Positions 21,089 through 48,722 of a DNA stretch of 64,000 nt are shown piece by piece. The notes under the pieces were generated by a model, which saw only the letters and a list, made by a program, of their open reading frames with translations, was not told the origin of the DNA and searched no databases. Position 1 is the first letter of the stretch. Every line of letters begins with the position of its first letter. This DNA comes from Shigella phage JK32: the sequence record MK962753.1, one strand, 5' to 3'. The position numbers and the translations under genes are program-made.

Positions 21089-21367
21089 TTATAAAATAAT
21101 TTTTTGATATTTTTCTATGATGTTCGTGTAATCCACATCAACCGCTATCACCGTTGCTTCGAATCCACCGTTTAGCCAATGGCTATGGTCATGATCGTGA
21201 AAGAAACCAAGACCAGTACGAAGACCTTCTTTATATTCGGCGCGTACATTTAGATCATCATCGATAAACAGATAAAACCATGAATTTTTACTAGGATTGA
21301 TGATACAACCTTTCAGATTAGGGAGAATATCACGACTAAGAATAAACTTATCACCTACTTTGAACAT
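21089..21367 (-). CDS. HxHW-family small protein, paralog B
   Basis: ATG at 21367 with SD GTGAGGA; motifs WFYLFIDDDL ... HDHSHW ... VIAVDV. Confidence 0.65.
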   Translation of the reverse strand: MFKVGDKFILSRDILPNLKGCIINPSKNSWFYLFIDDDLNVRAEYKEGLRTGLGFFHDHDHSHWLNGGFEATVIAVDVDYTNIIEKYQKIIL

Positions 21368-21371
21368 AATA

Positions 21372-21692
21372 TTAGTCCTCACTTATAAGGTCAAACCAAT
21401 TGTTTTTCGCATAATGCTTAATGCGTGCTTGATCTGCTTCCGCTGGTGATAGATTCCATGCAACCACTACAACTTCTGACGCATCGTCATCCGTTTCTGA
21501 TACCCAATGATTATGATTCATACAATTGTTTGCTATCGCGTGAGCAAATGATTTCATCACTGGAGACGTATAATCATAGTAACGGATTTTCAGATTTTCA
21601 TCAACGTACAAATAGATCGTATAAGGTTTATATTCAGTAACCAGTAACAGACAGTTACGCAATTCTGGGAAAATATTTTTAGTTAATTTCAT
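21372..21692 (-). CDS. HxHW-family small protein, paralog C
   Basis: 106 aa; YLYVDENL ... HNHW ... VVVAWNL..AEADQ; SD GGAGAA. Confidence 0.65.
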   Translation of the reverse strand: MKLTKNIFPELRNCLLLVTEYKPYTIYLYVDENLKIRYYDYTSPVMKSFAHAIANNCMNHNHWVSETDDDASEVVVVAWNLSPAEADQARIKHYAKNNWFDLISED

Positions 21693-21894
21693 ATTCTAGT
21701 TCTCCGTAATACACGGTAATCCATTTTTCTTCATACTTTGTATCTTTCCAACACACAATCCCGTTTACTGTGCAATCTTTGGAATTGACGAATGATTCAT
21801 ATTGTTCTGCATCTTCCATCATTGCATGAGCGGTCTTTTCATCGAATATATCGCAGATCGCTTTATATGCTCGATAATCTTTAAATTTGCTCAT
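21679..21894 (-). CDS. hypothetical small protein (71 aa), tandem duplicate 1 (MSKFKDY family)
   Basis: N-terminus MSKFKDYRAY, paralogous to adjacent 21897..22106; ATG at 21894. Confidence 0.55.
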   Translation of the reverse strand: MSKFKDYRAYKAICDIFDEKTAHAMMEDAEQYESFVNSKDCTVNGIVCWKDTKYEEKWITVYYGELEYEIN

Positions 21895-21896
21895 AA

Positions 21897-22106
21897 TTAA
21901 GACCACTCAAGAGTTTTTGAAAACACATCTATCCATTGTTGAGTATATGCGGTTTCTTTCCATGATACAATACCAGTCGAATAATGGTTTTTGTTTCCAG
22001 AAAAGGACGGGCATTTTGAGGCATCTTCCATCATCTTTTCGGCGAACTCTGGTTCGTATACTCGCAAGATCTGTTGATATGCTTTATAATCTTTAAATTT
22101 GCTCAT
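21897..22106 (-). CDS. hypothetical small protein (69 aa), tandem duplicate 2 (MSKFKDY family)
   Basis: N-terminus MSKFKDYKAY; SD AAGGTAG. Confidence 0.55.
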   Translation of the reverse strand: MSKFKDYKAYQQILRVYEPEFAEKMMEDASKCPSFSGNKNHYSTGIVSWKETAYTQQWIDVFSKTLEWS

Positions 22107-22371
22107 AATTGTTAACTACCTTATCAGCTTCTTTTATTGTTTTTACATCAACTGCGATAATCCGTAAAGGTTCGTCGAAGGTCCACCAATGATCGTGAAT
22201 ATCGGCTTGTGATTTATCACCAAAGGAATCACGAATATCATTTTTACATTTATAGCTAATGTGACCTTCATAGTCAACATAAAGGTAATTATCGAAAATC
22301 GGCGTTTTTAAGATCATACCGAAAAATCTTTCTTTGTGTGTCTTATCCAGTGTTGCAGTAATTCTCATCAT
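22093..22371 (-). CDS. HxHW-family small protein, paralog D
   Basis: 92 aa; YLYVDYEG ... HDHWW ... IIAVDV..EADK; SD AAGAGGAA. Confidence 0.65.
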   Translation of the reverse strand: MMRITATLDKTHKERFFGMILKTPIFDNYLYVDYEGHISYKCKNDIRDSFGDKSQADIHDHWWTFDEPLRIIAVDVKTIKEADKVVNNYEQI

Positions 22372-22383
22372 AATATATTCCTC

Positions 22384-22563
22384 TTAGAAAGGGATGGTCA
22401 TTTCTTGAGCTTGTACATTCTCGTTAGGATTAAACTTCATCCAACCGATATTGTCTACCAGCATATGCACATTTTTATCATATCCTACGTGAGTAGTCAA
22501 TACTGTATGTGCTTTACCTTCAACGATGATTTCCATGTACTTCTGAACTTCGATAGCTTTCAT
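22384..22563 (-). CDS. hypothetical small protein (59 aa, below track cutoff)
   Basis: Hand-translated ORF starting MKAIEVQKYMEI; SD GGAGAATC; early promoter upstream. Confidence 0.45.
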   Translation of the reverse strand: MKAIEVQKYMEIIVEGKAHTVLTTHVGYDKNVHMLVDNIGWMKFNPNENVQAQEMTIPF

Positions 22564-22595
22564 TTTGATTCTCCGTTTGTTGTCTTGATGGGAGT

Positions 22596-22624
22596 ATCTT
22601 ACTACTCCCTTTAATCATTGTCAA
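22596..22624 (-). promoter_or_regulatory. early promoter with inverted repeat around -10
   Basis: TTGACA, 17 nt, TAAGAT; GGGAGTA ... TACTCCC inverted repeat flanks the -10. Confidence 0.6.
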
Positions 22625-22627
22625 CGA

Positions 22628-22795
22628 TTATTTGTTAATTTCCGGTGCGTTGCTTGGATAGTAACCTTCTTTAACACCCAGATATTTTGCAACCATTCCG
22701 GTGATCTTCTGTGCTACTACGATATCGAATTTCAGGTAGTCTTCACCGTGGTTTGCTACAATGTATGCTTCGCATTCTGCTTTAGTCTGGAACAT
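22628..22795 (-). CDS. hypothetical small protein (55 aa)
   Basis: ATG at 22795 with SD AGGAGAATC; track ORF starts further upstream. Confidence 0.5.
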   Translation of the reverse strand: MFQTKAECEAYIVANHGEDYLKFDIVVAQKITGMVAKYLGVKEGYYPSNAPEINK

Positions 22796-22829
22796 TTTTG
22801 ATTCTCCTATATCTCGTTGGTATGTGTGC

Positions 22830-22859
22830 ATTATAGGGGATCGGTGACCCCCCTGTCAA
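22830..22859 (-). promoter_or_regulatory. early promoter with palindromic spacer
   Basis: TTGACA, spacer GGGGGGTCACCGATCCCC, TATAAT. Confidence 0.65.
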
Positions 22860-22866
22860 CAACTTT

Positions 22867-23169
22867 TTATTCTTCGTCTTTATCTTTATATGCGTATTTC
22901 ATAAATTTGTCTGCCACTTCGTCCGCGTTTTCAGGTTCTACGTCTGACGCTAGGACAACAGCTAGTTCGGTTTTGTCGTTTCCATCATACCAATGATTAT
23001 GAGTGTCGTTTTCTTCGATATAAAACGAATCATTTGGAGATGGGCGACAATATACGTCTAAATTCCCATCGATATAAAAGATCCAATCCGAATACAAAAT
23101 GATTGTTTTAGCCAGATTTTTATTGTCTCTTACAAAAGGTTCCGCGACAAATAGCTTAGTTTGTTCCAT
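22867..23169 (-). CDS. HxHW-family small protein, paralog E
   Basis: ATG at 23169 with SD GAGGAGA; IFYIDGNL ... HNHW ... AVVLASDV..ENADE. Confidence 0.6.
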   Translation of the reverse strand: MEQTKLFVAEPFVRDNKNLAKTIILYSDWIFYIDGNLDVYCRPSPNDSFYIEENDTHNHWYDGNDKTELAVVLASDVEPENADEVADKFMKYAYKDKDEE

Positions 23170-23185
23170 AGTAATCTCCTCAAAA

Positions 23186-23377
23186 TTATACAACTTCGTA
23201 AACTTCCCAATGTCCAACACCGGAACGCTTAACGAAAAGGTTTTCTTTGATGTTATTCATAAACGTCTGGATGGATTTAATGCGGTTGGAAGGTTTCCAG
23301 TCTTCGTTGGCATTGCGGCGATACATAATAACATTACCAGTTCTCTTATATTCAGCAACCATTTTAAGACCACACAT
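23186..23377 (-). CDS. hypothetical small protein (63 aa)
   Basis: SD GAGGA. Confidence 0.5.
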   Translation of the reverse strand: MCGLKMVAEYKRTGNVIMYRRNANEDWKPSNRIKSIQTFMNNIKENLFVKRSGVGHWEVYEVV

Positions 23378-23434
23378 AATATTATCCTCAATTTATGGGA
23401 GAGTATTACCCCTCCCAATGATTGTTATATTACA

Positions 23435-23755
23435 TCACATAAAATGGCGTTTCAATGCTTCTTTTGCGGTTCCGCTAAGACTTTCGATCTCGCCTGGCAT
23501 AACATCAACTGCCAGAACTTCTACAACATCCTCTGACCCCAACCAGTGAGTATGACCTTTGTAGAACTTGATAACCAGACTACCTTCCTCATCCCATTTA
23601 ACGCTATCGCTAGCCCACCACACATCACCGTCGATAAAGTTGATGTAAAGCACACTACGCCACATTGAATTAATTACTTTCAATACTGCGCCTTTCATAT
23701 CTTCCACGGTGTGGTCTTCCATTTTGAAGACCTCGCCTACCTGAACTTTTGCCAT
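23435..23755 (-). CDS. HxHW-family small protein, paralog F
   Basis: 106 aa; YINFIDGDV ... HTHW ... VLAVDV; SD GAGAGGTGA. Confidence 0.65.
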   Translation of the reverse strand: MAKVQVGEVFKMEDHTVEDMKGAVLKVINSMWRSVLYINFIDGDVWWASDSVKWDEEGSLVIKFYKGHTHWLGSEDVVEVLAVDVMPGEIESLSGTAKEALKRHFM

Positions 23756-23986: not shown

Positions 23987-24015
23987 AGTATAGGGGATCA
24001 CCGATCCCCTGTCAA
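23987..24015 (-). promoter_or_regulatory. early promoter with palindromic spacer
   Basis: TTGACA, spacer GGGGATCGGTGATCCCC, TATACT. Confidence 0.65.
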
Positions 24016-24028
24016 CAACTTTTTTGAA

Positions 24029-24505
24029 TTATTTTTCTTGATGCTCGCGCTCGTACTTTTCGAAATAAAATTCTACTGGCTGGTCGTGGATTGACAGTAA
24101 GCCAAAGCGTTTAGCCGCTCGCAACCCCATATTGCGCTGAATGTACTTCTGGAAGTTCTCGCGTATACACTTACGCCAGTATTCTAAGCCCATACAGCTT
24201 TTATAAAGATTGCATTGCACACACGCCGGATTCATGTTATCAAGTATATCATGCTCCGGTTTATGCATTCCTACAACCTTATACTTCCACGATCCATCAT
24301 CATTACGGGCAATTCGTCCATTTTCATCATAGACTACTTTTGAGCGTCGTAATACTGGTTTGATGTGGTCTGCGTGCCAGCGATCCCCTAGTTCCTCGCC
24401 ACAATAGGCACAACGTCCACCATATTTCATTTTCAGGATCTGGCGTTGCTCTTTCTTTGACAATTTTTTAGGTTTAGGGGCTTTCGCCCCTTCATTATCA
24501 CACAT
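24029..24505 (-). CDS. HNH endonuclease
   Basis: 158 aa; CxxC ... HADH ... N ... CxxC HNH-type motifs; start overlaps ligase stop (ATGTGTGA). Confidence 0.75.
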   Translation of the reverse strand: MCDNEGAKAPKPKKLSKKEQRQILKMKYGGRCAYCGEELGDRWHADHIKPVLRRSKVVYDENGRIARNDDGSWKYKVVGMHKPEHDILDNMNPACVQCNLYKSCMGLEYWRKCIRENFQKYIQRNMGLRAAKRFGLLSIHDQPVEFYFEKYEREHQEK

Positions 24506-26000
24506 CGAATACCTCTTTTACTGTATTTGCAGTGGTCTTGTCGTAGCGAATACGTTTGATGATCGGGAGAAATAAAGAGAACTCCGGTTCATCTTCTTTA
24601 CGTGATTTGCTGCGGATATACCCGTTGCATGTCATCTCAATGACTTTTCCAATCAGGTTATGACGGTCAGCCCATAACATTTCTCGGTCAAGTTCATTTC
24701 GACGATCGAACGGAATTACACGTTCGATACCATCATCACCTTTTTCGGTTGTAGTGTCGGTTAATCCCGATCCGGTGTTAGTCATCATTCGTCCACACGC
24801 ACTACGGACAGTAAAACCGCCTACCTTATTGGGGTCTTTACTATGCGGATATACATCAACAATTTCCGCGTCGAAGTCAATCACTTCTTTAAATTTAACC
24901 TGATCTTTACTACGGCGATCTTCAAATACACCATGCAGATTTTTAAGGATAATACCTTCTAAGCCCATGTTTACATAGCGATGATATACTTCGCGAGCTT
25001 CATCGATATTGTTAACTACAGTATTTTCGATTATCTGAACACGAGGATCGTTAAGTTCTTCAACAATCTGTTTTAGTTCTTCGAATCGATCTTTATATTG
25101 CTTCGTTGCTTTCTCGTTTCCGTAATACACATCACGGTCGATAACATCCCAGACAGTGTAAACAATACATTGGGCTTCTTCTTTTGGAATAGTTCCTTTC
25201 AGTGATTTGTTGAGGATACCATTTCCGGTCTGACGATCTGCAACAACGGATTCTTTCACTGCTTCCGCTACTGGCGTTAATGGCATTTCCTCTTCTTCAA
25301 ATATCCATGACAGAGTACCATCATAAACGCTCTCAACGAAGTTCTGCGCTGGTGTTTGCGAAAGGGTAGGCATATATACCAATTCGCCATCTAGAACAAT
25401 TCCACGGCCTCGTAGACGCTCTAAAACCGCAAACAAATCATCAAGCCCCTGATAGGTATTACCTGAACGGGTATAGATTGCTAATGTTTCCCCGTCAATA
25501 TCAGCCATACCACGAGCGCCATCGCTTTTAAGTTGTGCATATGCAGGATATTTGATATTAGCAATGGCCTTATCAGAATATGACGATGCAAGGTGGCACG
25601 GCTGCTGGGGGATCAGTTTCTTCCATACCTTGTTTGCAGTGGTAGCGGAACAACCGCATTCCAGATCACGATTCAGGACCATCATTGCAACTTTAGCATC
25701 ATCTTCTGACAAGCAAGTCAGAGTATCGGTAACTAGCTGTAATGCTGCATTACCAGTTACTTGACGCGTGGCAAGTTTATTTTTAAAGACCTGTAATGCA
25801 CCGGATAAAGACAATACAGACGAATAACGCGATGGTTTATCGTATTTCTTTACGCCAAACGTAACCTGTTTGCAATATGCCAGATAAAAGCATTCTTTCA
25901 GCGTTTCATTGCTTGCAGATTCTTTCAGAATCTTTTCTTTCAGCGATGTTTTGTCTGTTGCTGCAAGCTGATTAATGATATTAAGAATTGACATTTTCAC
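24498..26000 (-). CDS. 30: ATP-dependent DNA ligase gp30
   Basis: 500 aa (T4 487 aa); adenylation motif KSDGAR; position after alt region as in T4. Confidence 0.9.
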   Translation of the reverse strand: MKMSILNIINQLAATDKTSLKEKILKESASNETLKECFYLAYCKQVTFGVKKYDKPSRYSSVLSLSGALQVFKNKLATRQVTGNAALQLVTDTLTCLSEDDAKVAMMVLNRDLECGCSATTANKVWKKLIPQQPCHLASSYSDKAIANIKYPAYAQLKSDGARGMADIDGETLAIYTRSGNTYQGLDDLFAVLERLRGRGIVLDGELVYMPTLSQTPAQNFVESVYDGTLSWIFEEEEMPLTPVAEAVKESVVADRQTGNGILNKSLKGTIPKEEAQCIVYTVWDVIDRDVYYGNEKATKQYKDRFEELKQIVEELNDPRVQIIENTVVNNIDEAREVYHRYVNMGLEGIILKNLHGVFEDRRSKDQVKFKEVIDFDAEIVDVYPHSKDPNKVGGFTVRSACGRMMTNTGSGLTDTTTEKGDDGIERVIPFDRRNELDREMLWADRHNLIGKVIEMTCNGYIRSKSRKEDEPEFSLFLPIIKRIRYDKTTANTVKEVFDV

Positions 26001-34669: not shown

Positions 34670-34698
34670 ATTATAGCGGGGATTTCTCCCCGCGTCAA
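34670..34698 (-). promoter_or_regulatory. early promoter with palindromic spacer
   Basis: TTGACG, spacer CGGGGAGAAATCCCCGC, TATAAT. Confidence 0.65.
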
Positions 34699-36950: not shown

Positions 36951-37018
36951 ATTACCTCACTTCATATTTTAGCAGGAACAAGTTTATCCTCCATATTGGG
37001 GGCTTTCGCCCCCTTTGT

Positions 37019-38239
37019 TTATACTGCCATTTGAGCGGTGATCGCTGGATGGCTTTGATAGTTGTGAATTTTAAAGTCTTTCGGAGTCTTTGTCAATACC
37101 TCATCTAAAGACTTAAATTCCGGCAACTCAATTGTTGGTTTATCAAACGGAACACGGTTTAATTGTTCCATAACTTGATCAAAGTGGTTTTTGTAAATGT
37201 GAGTATCTCCACCAGAGAAAATCAGTTCTCCTACCTCAAGATCACACATTTTCGCTATGATGTGGGTTAAAAGTGCATAGCTGGCAACATTAAAGGGCAA
37301 GCCCAAAAAGCTGTCTACGCTTCTCTGAAACCACATACAAGACAGTTTACCTTCATTGACGTAGAATTGCACGAAAGGATGACATACACCTAACACAGCA
37401 TTATGTGTTCCTTGTACGTTCCATGAGTCAATAATGATCCGGCGATCCGTTGGATTGTTTTTAATTTGTTCAATCACGTTTTGTAACTGGTCTTCCCAAA
37501 TCTTCGGTCGATAGATATATTCTTCATCGTCTTTAGGGCTTGATGTGTCTACGTCCATATTAACAAAGATCGTGGTATCCGGTGCGAACATATCCCCACC
37601 CAGATAATCACTATCAAGCAGATAACCGAAATAACCATCATCTACCCATTCCTGGAATCCCCACAAGCAATATGCATCATTAACAAAATTAGATTGAGTC
37701 TTCCAGTGGTCTGCTACCAGAATATAATCAAACTCTTCATAACGCATACCACGCCAGATAGCACATAAACGGTCTTCTGTGTCATTGGTTGGCGTAAAGT
37801 CTTCTACCCACGGGTGCTTAAATGTATGTGTATATTTGCTCTTAACGCGCTTAATTTTGATTTCACCGTGTGGATGAATCGGTTTGCGTCGCCAAGCCAT
37901 ACCATACATATTGCCGACATTATAACCATTGAATCGCAAAGGATTCTTTTCTTTCATATCAAGACAGTTGCCGCGCCAAATGTCGAAGGCTTCTTCGTCA
38001 AACTTACCGCGTGTAATTTCCTGTAAGCGACGGCGGTCAAGTGATCCCTCCATAAACCATAGCAACTCGCCAATTACAGAGGCTGTAGCCATCTTTTTAG
38101 TGGTCAGTAAGGGGAAACCCTTGCTTAAATCGATTCGCATCTCTGCGCCGAATTTAGAGAGCGTACCTACCCCCGTGCGGTCTTCACGAGGCCAGCCATT
38201 ATCAAGAACATCACGCAACAGTTTCAAATATTCTTTCAT
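37019..38239 (-). CDS. td: thymidylate synthase with ~120-aa internal insertion
   Basis: N-terminal RTGTGT and C-terminal catalytic blocks conserved; 406 aa versus 286 aa in T4; insertion after the YG-x-WR block. Confidence 0.85.
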   Translation of the reverse strand: MKEYLKLLRDVLDNGWPREDRTGVGTLSKFGAEMRIDLSKGFPLLTTKKMATASVIGELLWFMEGSLDRRRLQEITRGKFDEEAFDIWRGNCLDMKEKNPLRFNGYNVGNMYGMAWRRKPIHPHGEIKIKRVKSKYTHTFKHPWVEDFTPTNDTEDRLCAIWRGMRYEEFDYILVADHWKTQSNFVNDAYCLWGFQEWVDDGYFGYLLDSDYLGGDMFAPDTTIFVNMDVDTSSPKDDEEYIYRPKIWEDQLQNVIEQIKNNPTDRRIIIDSWNVQGTHNAVLGVCHPFVQFYVNEGKLSCMWFQRSVDSFLGLPFNVASYALLTHIIAKMCDLEVGELIFSGGDTHIYKNHFDQVMEQLNRVPFDKPTIELPEFKSLDEVLTKTPKDFKIHNYQSHPAITAQMAV

Positions 38240-48689: not shown

Positions 48690-48722
48690 TTAAAGGGGGC
48701 GAAAGCCCCCTATGGGGTTATT

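What the first reader, a model, noticed from the sequence alone, without database searches (positions are those of the whole stretch)
24029..24505. HNH endonuclease gene translationally coupled to the 3' end of DNA ligase
The HNH start codon lies inside the last ligase codons (ATGTGTGA). HNH ORFs in T-even phages are often free-standing homing endonucleases; tight coupling to an essential gene would be consistent with a selfish element using the host gene's translation, or with a function in DNA packaging or repair.
Basis: partly seen in the sequence, partly recalled or inferred. Interest (0 to 1): 0.4.

Follow-up and report, generated by a model that had tools for sequence, protein, structure and literature searches.

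The report
Conserved HNH nuclease gene after ligase
A small DNA-cutting (HNH) enzyme gene really does start inside the last codons of the DNA ligase gene of this RB49-like coliphage. It is an already annotated gene, found in every sequenced relative and strongly conserved, so it looks like a long-settled working gene rather than an actively spreading selfish element.

Summary
On the minus strand a 158-aa HNH ORF (24505→24029) starts with ATG inside ATGTGTGA, whose TGA ends gene 30 (DNA ligase, 25994→24498).

The window is a Krischvirus (RB49-like, "pseudo-T-even"), and the ORF is RB49 ORF212, annotated since 2006 and listed as a putative homing endonuclease.

New here:
- It abuts the ligase in all 58 genome-length Krischvirus records, with an invariant junction.
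- Within the genus dN/dS is 0.008, against 0.044 for the ligase.
- A divergent metagenomic lineage (ligase 71% aa, HNH 70% aa) keeps the same order and a stop/start overlap (TAATG).
- All catalytic and zinc residues are invariant across 74 homologues.
- The family (phrog_2118) is otherwise promiscuous. It sits in siphophage replication modules, prophages and more than 2,400 conjugative plasmids, and is present or absent at the trbC/traN junction.
- Stop/start overlaps are routine in this genome and in this family.
- The ORF has its own Shine-Dalgarno sequence. A GNRA hairpin of the phage's intercistronic type lies in codons 6-10.

Best reading: a once-mobile nuclease gene captured downstream of ligase, fixed, co-expressed with it and kept for a still unknown function. 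Active homing and a packaging role are not supported. Low novelty, modest interest.

The parts
24029..24505 (-). HNH nuclease ORF, 158 aa (orthologue of RB49 ORF212 / RB49p212). It has a [CxxC]2 zinc site (C32, C35, C95, C98), a D46-H47 catalytic pair, N90 and N99, and a conserved C-terminal helical region (WR...AKRFGL...FYFEK).
   Evidence: invariant residues in 74 homologues; AlphaFold2 pLDDT 93.9.
24498..24505 (-). 8-nt stop/start overlap ATGTGTGA (HNH ATG, ligase TGA).
   Evidence: It is identical in all 13 Krischvirus sequences examined.
24511..24517 (-). Shine-Dalgarno sequence AAGAGGT for the HNH ORF, inside the ligase coding sequence, 6 nt upstream of the ATG.
   Evidence: Read from the sequence. 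A ribosome-binding site is annotated at this place in phage Makalu_002.
24477..24490 (-). GNRA hairpin GGGGC-GAAA-GCCCC (about -12.6 kcal/mol). It lies 7 nt after the ligase stop, at nt +16..+29 of the HNH ORF (codons 6-10).
   Evidence: The same 14-mer occurs twice more in the window, both times intergenic and 5 nt after a stop codon. It is invariant in the genus and absent in the sister lineage.
24498..25994 (-). Gene 30, ATP-dependent DNA ligase (498 aa from the ATG; the ORF tool extends it to a GTG at 26000).
23987..24015 (-). Early-type promoter (TTGACA-17-TATACT) with a stem-loop GGGGATCGGTGATCCCC in its spacer (a PeSL cassette), directly after the HNH stop. It marks the start of the variable small-ORF region.
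   Evidence: searches (11 of 12 match; annotated promoter in GEC-3S), and Arbiol et al. 2010 (PMC2839356).

Best explanation
The ORF encodes an intact beta-beta-alpha-metal (HNH) zinc-finger nuclease of a family (PHROG 2118) that circulates among phages, prophages and conjugative plasmids as a small cassette wedged between genes of conserved operons.

One such cassette was captured directly downstream of gene 30 (DNA ligase) in the common ancestor of Krischvirus and at least one sister lineage. Since then it has been inherited vertically, fixed, and kept under very strong protein-level purifying selection.

It is transcribed as the cistron after ligase on the same early or middle mRNA. It is translated from its own Shine-Dalgarno sequence and ATG, which lie inside the last ligase codons. 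A stable intercistronic-type hairpin at +16..+29 probably limits independent initiation and/or marks an mRNA 3' end. Ribosomes finishing ligase would then be the main source of a low-level supply of the nuclease.

Shown: gene identity, intact active site, fixation, selection, synteny, junction anatomy and family distribution.

Inferred:
- Co-transcription and coupling.
- That the protein nicks or cuts DNA, like other small [CxxC]2 phage HNH enzymes.
- That it is retained because it benefits the phage, through DNA metabolism, recombination or action on foreign DNA, rather than because it is currently homing.

The substrate is unknown.
For: - Present and abutting the ligase in 58 of 58 genome-length Krischvirus records. 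The 59th record is a 1.5-kb fragment that does not reach the site.
- The junction is invariant. The stretch -25..+43 around the start has no variable site in 12 sequences and is the least variable part of ligase plus HNH.
- dN/dS is 0.008 for HNH against 0.044 for ligase, at similar dS (0.14 and 0.12). Of 33 variable sites, 31 are third codon positions.
- The sister lineage L018/L019 has ligase at 71% and HNH at 70% aa identity, in the same order, with a TAATG overlap. HNH G+C tracks each lineage: 43.6% against a 40% window average here, 36% against 34% for the ligase there.
- C32, C35, D46, H47, N90, C95, C98 and N99 are invariant in 74 homologues.
- The family is absent after the ligase in T4, phage leE, phage Fraggle and 77 metagenomic T4-like ligase loci.
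- The family is mobile elsewhere. It occurs on 2,695 plasmid records, is present or absent between trbC and traN, and sits in varied phage and prophage modules.
- In the same genomes, recognised homing endonuclease genes differ in number and kind between RB49, phi1 and JSE, whereas this gene is common to all three (Petrov 2010, PMC2993671; Arbiol 2010, PMC2839356).
- The hairpin copies after td and after a 1246-aa gene are intergenic.
Against: - There are no functional data of any kind. No transcriptome, proteome or knockout for Krischvirus was found.
- Purifying selection shows that the protein matters but not to whom. A homing endonuclease that still meets rare empty sites could also be conserved.
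- Sampling is limited to coliphage isolates plus a few metagenomic contigs, so HNH-less relatives may exist unsampled. No ligase relatives at 50-95% identity other than L018/L019 could be found.
- Coupling is not required by the anatomy, because the ORF has a good Shine-Dalgarno sequence of its own.
- The hairpin's role is inferred from position and recurrence only.
Confidence: 0.55

Rival explanations
1. It is a still-active selfish free-standing homing endonuclease gene. The enzyme cuts the ligase region of relatives that lack it, and repair copies the gene in. Its fixation in sequenced isolates would simply reflect a completed sweep.
For: - RB49 ORF212 is listed as a putative mobile element or homing endonuclease gene in the literature (PMC1524935; PMC2993671 Table 5).
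- Its position next to a conserved essential gene is typical of free-standing homing endonuclease genes.
- The family shows presence/absence polymorphism at trbC/traN in F-like plasmids and occupies many unrelated operon junctions.
Against: - There is no empty site in 58 of 58 genome records or in the Krischvirus metagenome contigs that reach the site.
- The sister lineage also carries it, with HNH divergence equal to ligase divergence.
- dN/dS of 0.008 after fixation is not what the homing cycle predicts (decay once fixed).
- Pfam detects no accessory DNA-binding module such as AP2 or NUMOD.
- The HNH-less ligases sampled (<=47% aa identity) are too diverged for homologous repair.
- A real sporadic AP2-HNH gene at the ligase 5' flank of phage Fraggle, absent from phage leE, shows what the expected pattern looks like.
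Confidence: 0.2
2. It is a recombination or replication nuclease of the lambda Rap/NinG or T4 endonuclease VII kind. It would cut branched or nicked intermediates, which would fit its position beside the ligase and, in siphophages, inside replication modules.
For: - PHROG secondary hits are to 'endonuclease VII' families.
- 5 of 74 family members weakly match Pfam NinG and 5 match Endonuclease_7.
- Homologues lie between DNA polymerase and helicase (phage eiAU), and among primase, methyltransferase and ParB genes (phage Sasha).
Against: - The matches are weak (best E 1.4e-4 and 2.4e-3, in a minority of members).
- RB49-type phages are not among those reported to lack gp49 (PMC2993671), so no gap needs filling.
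- The plasmid copies sit in type IV secretion operons, not in replication modules.
Confidence: 0.1
3. It forms a functional nick-and-seal pair with the ligase. The HNH would introduce site-specific nicks in phage or host DNA that the co-expressed ligase controls or reverses.
For: - Gene adjacency and overlap are conserved in two lineages.
- Related small [CxxC]2 phage HNH enzymes are nicking enzymes (PMC3592412; Gme HNH 4H9D among the fold hits).
Against: - The family shows no ligase association anywhere else.
- Adjacency is explained equally well by a single insertion event.
- There is no evidence of nicked Krischvirus genomes.
Confidence: 0.05
4. It is a terminase-associated packaging HNH of the HK97 gp74 kind.
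For: - One homologue (phage Bas77) lies two ORFs upstream of the large terminase subunit.
Against: - Here it is flanked by early genes, far from any terminase.
- T4-type terminase gp17 carries its own nuclease and packages by the headful mechanism (established knowledge).
- Most homologues are not next to a terminase.
Confidence: 0.03

Closest known systems
RB49 ORF212c / RB49p212, phi1 ORF212, JSE EpJSE_00219 (annotated 'HNH endonuclease')
   Same: It is the same gene, at 97.5-100% aa identity, in the same position and with the same 8-nt overlap with gene 30.
   Different: Nothing differs beyond a few synonymous changes. The window carries the 158-aa allele followed by a PeSL promoter. RB49 and JSE carry a 157-aa allele followed 7 nt later by ORF211.
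Free-standing HNH homing endonucleases of T4-type phages (MobA-E, I-TevIII, AP2-HNH such as RB49 ORF040)
   Same: It is an HNH nuclease gene lying between conserved genes in a T4-type genome. The literature lists it with them as 'other HNH'.
   Different: - It is not sporadic (58 of 58 records).
- Pfam detects no accessory DNA-binding module.
- It is under stronger constraint than the ligase.
- Its fold is closest to Cas9/McrA-class HNH domains, and no homing endonuclease appears among the structural matches.
Small [CxxC]2 phage HNH nicking endonucleases next to cos/terminase (HK97 gp74, GVE2 HNH, Gme HNH; Xu & Gupta 2013, PMC3592412)
   Different: - It is not next to a terminase.
- It has a 30-residue beta-hairpin insertion between the DH and N motifs.
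- It has a family-specific C-terminal helical domain with no structural match.
HNH domain of type II-C Cas9 (e.g. GeoCas9 HNH, 7MPZ) and McrA-class nucleases
   Different: The resemblance is at fold level only (15-23% identity). There is no RNA-guided or modification-reading context.
PHROG 2118 members in conjugative plasmids (e.g. WP_001229397 between trbC and traN of pSLT-type IncF plasmids)
   Same: It belongs to the same protein family (38-45% identity over about 85% of the length), has the same cassette-like placement inside an operon, and has the same stop/start overlaps.
   Different: The host replicon and neighbouring genes differ. The plasmid copies are polymorphic (present or absent), whereas the Krischvirus copy is fixed.

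Membership tests
HNH (beta-beta-alpha-metal) nuclease superfamily | Sequence match to the HNH profile above the curated threshold. | tested here: met
   PF01844 scores 27 bits against a cut-off of 21.4. 71 of 74 family members match it.
HNH (beta-beta-alpha-metal) nuclease superfamily | Catalytic His (general base), structural Asn, metal-binding Asn/His and, in this class, a [CxxC]2 zinc site, all intact. | tested here: met
   C32, C35, D46, H47, N90, C95, C98 and N99 are invariant in 74 homologues.
HNH (beta-beta-alpha-metal) nuclease superfamily | The beta-beta-alpha fold. | tested here: met
HNH (beta-beta-alpha-metal) nuclease superfamily | Nuclease activity. | not testable with these tools
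   Needs purified protein.
PHROG 2118 (phage/plasmid small HNH with a conserved C-terminal WR...AKRFGL...FYFEK region) | Full-length profile match including the C-terminal region. | tested here: met
   E 7.9e-55 over residues 4-157. R111, F146, F148 and E149 are invariant, and W110, R129, A131, G135 and L136 are conserved in at least 90% of sequences.
Free-standing homing endonuclease gene | Sporadic presence or absence among close relatives. | tested here: not met
   Present in 58 of 58 genome-length Krischvirus records and in a sister lineage at about 70% aa identity.
Free-standing homing endonuclease gene | Lies between or next to conserved genes that carry the target site. | tested here: met
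   It directly follows the essential gene 30. This feature is only a location criterion and is also met by ordinary genes.
Free-standing homing endonuclease gene | Nuclease core joined to a sequence-reading DNA-binding module (NUMOD, IENR, AP2, HTH). | tested here: inconclusive
   No such Pfam domain was found. The C-terminal helical region has no structural match and could bind DNA.
Free-standing homing endonuclease gene | Cleaves the cognate empty allele and is over-inherited with co-conversion of flanking markers. | not testable with these tools
   No empty allele is known. This needs engineered phages and mixed infections.
Terminase-associated packaging HNH (HK97 gp74 type) | The gene is adjacent to the terminase genes and the cos end. 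| tested here: not met
   The neighbours are cd, 31, 30.3, 30 and small early ORFs.
Terminase-associated packaging HNH (HK97 gp74 type) | Stimulates terminase cleavage at cos. | not testable with these tools
   This is a biochemical assay. T4-type phages use headful packaging (established knowledge).
Lambda NinG/Rap and T4 endonuclease VII recombination nucleases | Profile match to PF05766 or PF02945. | tested here: not met

The most novel reading that the evidence does not exclude
The PHROG 2118 nuclease is not a homing enzyme at all. It would be a domesticated, generally useful tool of mobile elements, with a shared function still unknown, for example attacking competing incoming DNA or processing DNA ends or nicks. 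That would explain why the same small HNH sits under tight constraint after the ligase of a T4-type phage, inside replication modules of siphophages, and inside the type IV secretion operons of more than 2,400 conjugative plasmids. In Krischvirus it could work with the co-translated ligase as a nick/seal pair.
Probability: 0.12. Interest if true: 0.6.

Novelty: already known. Interest (0 to 1): 0.25.

Why it matters
As a gene it matters little. It is annotated in dozens of GenBank genomes and was listed in 2006-2010 as a putative homing endonuclease.

The useful correction is that population and comparative data do not fit an active selfish element. The gene is fixed, is as old as the split from a lineage with about 70% aa identity, and is more constrained than the essential ligase beside it.

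This makes it a clean candidate for a domesticated nuclease in phages that are used for therapy (phi1, GEC-3S, JSE relatives). It also points to an uncharacterised HNH family that is extremely common inside transfer operons of enterobacterial conjugative plasmids.

Tried and rejected
- **Chance or mis-called ORF: rejected.** The profile matches, the invariant active site and a 31:2 excess of third-position changes all argue against it.
- **Alternative downstream start: rejected.** The TTG at codon 15 aligns with the N-terminus of most homologues. However, no Shine-Dalgarno sequence precedes it, and the sister lineage shares the 'MC' start on the stop/start overlap.
- **Ligase-HNH fusion by programmed frameshift: considered and rejected.** HNH is in the +1 frame, but that frame is open for only 4 codons upstream of the ATG (a TAA lies 5 codons up), and no slippery or RF2-like site precedes the TGA (sequence).
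- **Replacement of endonuclease VII: rejected.** RB49-type phages are not among those reported to lack gp49.
- **Solved-structure sequence search: uninformative.** Nothing scored below E 0.19.
- **Foldseek against the PDB: uninformative.** It gave only generic HNH hits with E > 0.05.
- **PADLOC and NCBIfam: uninformative.** Only sub-threshold PtuB, Cas9 and retron HNH similarity was found.
- **Search for ligase relatives at 50-95% identity, to find empty sites: nothing beyond L018/L019**.
- **Literature searches: nothing relevant.** I looked for Krischvirus HNH function, transcriptomes or essentiality screens, and for the plasmid trbC-traN HNH. The RB49 genome paper PMC135041 is not held.
- **Metagenome scaffold L020, where the ORF breaks at codon 75 into unrelated GC-rich DNA: set aside.** I treated it as a probable chimeric assembly, not as an insertion allele.

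Full report
**1. What is in the sequence**

On the minus strand an ORF runs from 24505 to 24029 and encodes 158 aa. Its ATG (24505-24503) lies in the octamer ATGTGTGA. The TGA of that octamer (24500-24498) ends the upstream ORF, which matches the ATP-dependent DNA ligase domain (PF01068, E 4e-22) and is about 41% identical to T4 gp30 over its whole length.

The small ORF matches Pfam HNH above threshold (27 bits, cut-off 21.4) and PHROG 2118 'HNH endonuclease' at E 8e-55.

A good Shine-Dalgarno sequence (AAGAGGT, 24517-24511) lies 6 nt upstream of the ATG, inside the ligase coding sequence. Upstream of the ligase is gene 30.3 (PF08010), which overlaps the ligase start by 14 nt. Downstream of the HNH stop is a near-consensus early promoter, TTGACA-17-TATACT, with a GC stem-loop in its spacer. 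This is a 'PeSL' cassette as described for RB49 and phi1 (PMC2839356).

**2. Where the window comes from**

The region is 97-98% identical at the nucleotide level to 58 genome-length records of genus Krischvirus in the Straboviridae, including RB49, phi1, JSE, GEC-3S and ECD7. These are the 'pseudo-T-even' coliphages, not T-even phages. In the table of Petrov et al. they are not among the phages carrying the dCMP-hydroxymethylase, denB or alc genes (PMC2993671).

The ORF is RB49 ORF212c (RB49p212). Nolan et al. 2006 listed it under 'putative mobile DNA elements' on the strength of its Pfam match (PMC1524935). Petrov et al. 2010 count an 'other HNH' putative homing endonuclease gene in each of RB49, phi1 and JSE, most likely this ORF (PMC2993671 Table 5). 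I found no functional study.

**3. Is the overlap special?**

It is not.
- A crude ORF map of the window gives 23 overlapping pairs among 83 same-strand neighbouring pairs, with sizes of 1, 4, 8, 11, 14 nt and so on.
- T4's own ligase overlaps its downstream ORF by 4 nt.
- Homologues of this HNH in other elements nearly always start 1-4 nt inside the upstream gene. Examples are Sasha gp75/gp76, KcrB gp032/033, and the metagenomic loci L021, L028, L030 and L031.

The overlap is the normal packing of this genome and of this family. It tells us nothing specific about the ligase.

**4. Distribution**

The HNH DNA is found in 58 records, and the ligase DNA in the same 58 plus one 1.5-kb fragment that does not reach the site. 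In every record the two matches abut with no gap. Some records are GenBank/RefSeq duplicates of one phage. Krischvirus contigs from IMG/VR and from metagenomes also carry the gene.

Outside the genus, the nearest phage homologues are only 42-44% identical and sit in 35-60 kb siphophages. No hit falls between 60% and 95% identity.

Three other Straboviridae that I inspected (T4, Cronobacter phage leE and Klebsiella phage Fraggle) have other genes after the ligase. None of 77 metagenomic T4-like ligase loci has a family member adjoining the ligase.

A search of the 5.8-billion-protein collection found one intermediate relative, P0003, at 70% identity. Its two short contigs (L018, L019) show it directly after a ligase fragment that is 71% identical to the window's ligase. 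The stop and start share one base (TAATG), and a terminator and promoter follow. The gene was therefore already in place when these two lineages split, and it has diverged exactly as much as the ligase. Its G+C content has also drifted with each lineage.

**5. Selection**

I compared ten Krischvirus sequences.

| Gene | mean dS | mean dN | dN/dS |
|---|---|---|---|
| HNH | 0.140 | 0.0011 | 0.008 |
| Ligase | 0.116 | 0.0051 | 0.044 |

Of 33 variable HNH sites, 31 are third codon positions. Synonymous sites change freely, so the constraint acts on the protein, and it is stronger than on the essential ligase.

Across 74 homologues the residues C32, C35, D46, H47, N90, C95, C98 and N99 are invariant. 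So are several residues of a C-terminal region (WR...AKRFGL...FYFEK).

Only the last four or five codons differ between two alleles.
- The 158-aa allele (36 records) is followed by the PeSL promoter.
- The 157-aa allele (22 records, including RB49 and JSE) is followed after 7 nt by ORF211, a gene unique to RB49 relative to phi1.

The shuffling boundary of the hyperplastic region thus lies at the very 3' end of the HNH ORF, and the ORF itself is on the conserved side.

**6. Junction anatomy**

The stretch from -25 to +43 around the HNH start has no variable site in 12 sequences. It is the least variable part of the 1.95-kb ligase-plus-HNH block, with 3 variable sites in 120 nt where about 12 are expected.

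Seven nucleotides after the ligase TGA, at HNH nt +16 to +29, lies a GNRA hairpin, GGGGC-GAAA-GCCCC, with a predicted stability of about -12.6 kcal/mol. The same 14-mer occurs twice more in the window, against 0.12 expected by chance. Both other copies are intergenic and lie 5 nt after a stop codon: one after thymidylate synthase and one after a 1246-aa plus-strand gene.

It is therefore an intercistronic-type hairpin that here falls inside the ORF. The sister lineage lacks it, together with exactly eight codons (DNEGAKAP) of the N-terminal tail. That tail has the lowest model confidence.

My inference is that the hairpin dampens independent initiation and/or marks a 3' end of the ligase message. 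Ribosomes terminating at the ligase TGA, which must melt it, would then be the main route to a small supply of the nuclease. This is not shown.

**7. What kind of HNH it is**

- Then McrA (6.5), Cap5, retron HNH proteins, the Gme nicking HNH (6.0) and the GVE2 packaging HNH (5.9).
- No homing endonuclease appears in the list.

The C-terminal helices have no structural match. A minority of family members weakly match Pfam NinG or Endonuclease_7. Small [CxxC]2 phage HNH proteins that have been tested are nicking enzymes (PMC3592412), so nicking is the most likely activity by analogy.

**8. The family elsewhere**

The family is found in very different settings.
- Between DNA polymerase and helicase in phage eiAU.
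- Among primase, methyltransferase and ParB genes in phage Sasha.
- In early regions of a Stx phage and of Caulobacter phages.
- Two ORFs upstream of the large terminase subunit in phage Bas77.
- Next to methyltransferases, excisionase or integrase in prophage-like contigs.

It is also on 2,695 plasmid records, of which 2,445 are conjugative. In pSLT-type IncF plasmids it lies between trbC and traN, overlapping traN by 4 nt. Other F-like plasmids have trbC overlapping traN directly, with no HNH. An IncI-like transfer region has it between traX and dotA/traY.

The family therefore behaves as a cassette that comes and goes at operon junctions of conserved genes. That supports a mobile origin for the Krischvirus copy.

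**9. Interpretation**

Three things point the same way: a mobile family, a copy that is fixed and as old as the split from the ~70%-identity sister lineage, and constraint stronger than on the ligase. Together they indicate a captured cassette that has been kept for what its protein does.

The homing-cycle expectation is sporadic distribution followed by decay after fixation. This gene does not meet it, although recognised homing endonuclease genes in the same genomes do vary between RB49, phi1 and JSE. A sporadic AP2-HNH gene also occupies the 5' flank of the ligase in phage Fraggle but not in its relative leE.

Active homing cannot be excluded, because no experiment exists and empty sites may be unsampled. 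I give it 0.2. A packaging role is unlikely from the context. A recombination-nuclease role or a nick/seal partnership with the ligase are possible specialisations of the main explanation, with little direct support.

**10. Verdict**

The gene is already annotated and has already been discussed as a putative homing endonuclease gene, so novelty is low. The added value is the evidence for fixation and strong constraint, the embedded intercistronic hairpin, and the link to a very common but uncharacterised HNH of conjugative-plasmid transfer operons.

Noticed in passing
window 21089-23755 (minus strand): ORFs 23435-23755, 22867-23220, 22093-22371, 21372-21692, 21089-21367: Five tandem small ORFs (92-117 aa) downstream of the HNH are paralogues, 20-27% identical to the first. 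They share invariant D...HxHW...A residues and a frequent 'AVDV' motif. None has a Pfam match. They are interspersed with PeSL-type promoters in the hyperplastic region.
   Followed up: partly
window 36999-37012 (-) and 48696-48709 (+): There are two further exact copies of the hairpin GGGGCGAAAGCCCC (16-nt stem versions, about -15 kcal/mol). Each lies 5 nt after a stop codon: one after td and before nrdA, the other after a 1246-aa plus-strand gene. This looks like a recurring intercistronic RNA element of this phage. A 2-mismatch copy lies at 34678-34691 (-).
   Followed up: partly
window 37019-38239 (-): The thymidylate synthase ORF is 406 aa and matches PF00303 in two stretches (the best one aligns residues 250-406 to profile positions 110-266). 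This suggests an insertion or N-terminal extension of roughly 120 aa compared with typical Td proteins of about 280 aa.
   Followed up: no
L116 3986-4405 (pSLT-type IncF plasmid NZ_CP149398.1) versus L119 (NZ_AP026094.1): A homologue of this HNH (about 40% identity) sits between trbC and traN in many F-like transfer operons and is absent from the same junction in others. The family is on 2,695 plasmid records, 2,445 of them conjugative. I found no literature on it.
   Followed up: partly
L011 1969-2520 (Klebsiella phage Fraggle) versus L012 1903-2520 (Cronobacter phage leE): In Fraggle an AP2 + HNH_3-type ORF (weak Pfam matches) overlaps the start of the ligase gene. leE has an unrelated 205-aa ORF at that position, sharing only the last 11 residues. 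This is the replacement pattern typical of a homing endonuclease gene at the ligase 5' flank.
   Followed up: partly
L020 5001-5724 (ENA scaffold_8678, ERZ16268176): This is a Krischvirus scaffold in which the HNH ORF is identical up to codon 75 and then continues into unrelated, more GC-rich sequence. It is probably a chimeric assembly, but an insertion allele was not excluded.
   Followed up: partly
L063 4418-4981, L086 4623-5186, L105 4724-5287 (freshwater T4-like metagenome contigs): A different HNH gene (HNH_5/HNH, E 1e-16 for L086) lies about 1 kb downstream of the ligase in several distant T4-like contigs. It is unrelated to the Krischvirus family beyond the HNH core.
   Followed up: no
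window 24029-24044 and relatives (L022, L024, L027 versus L001, L023, L025, L026): Two alleles differ only in the last 4-5 codons of the HNH ORF (…EREHQEK* versus …ERENKE*). The recombination breakpoint that begins the variable region (PeSL promoter versus ORF211) lies inside the 3' end of the ORF.
   Followed up: yes
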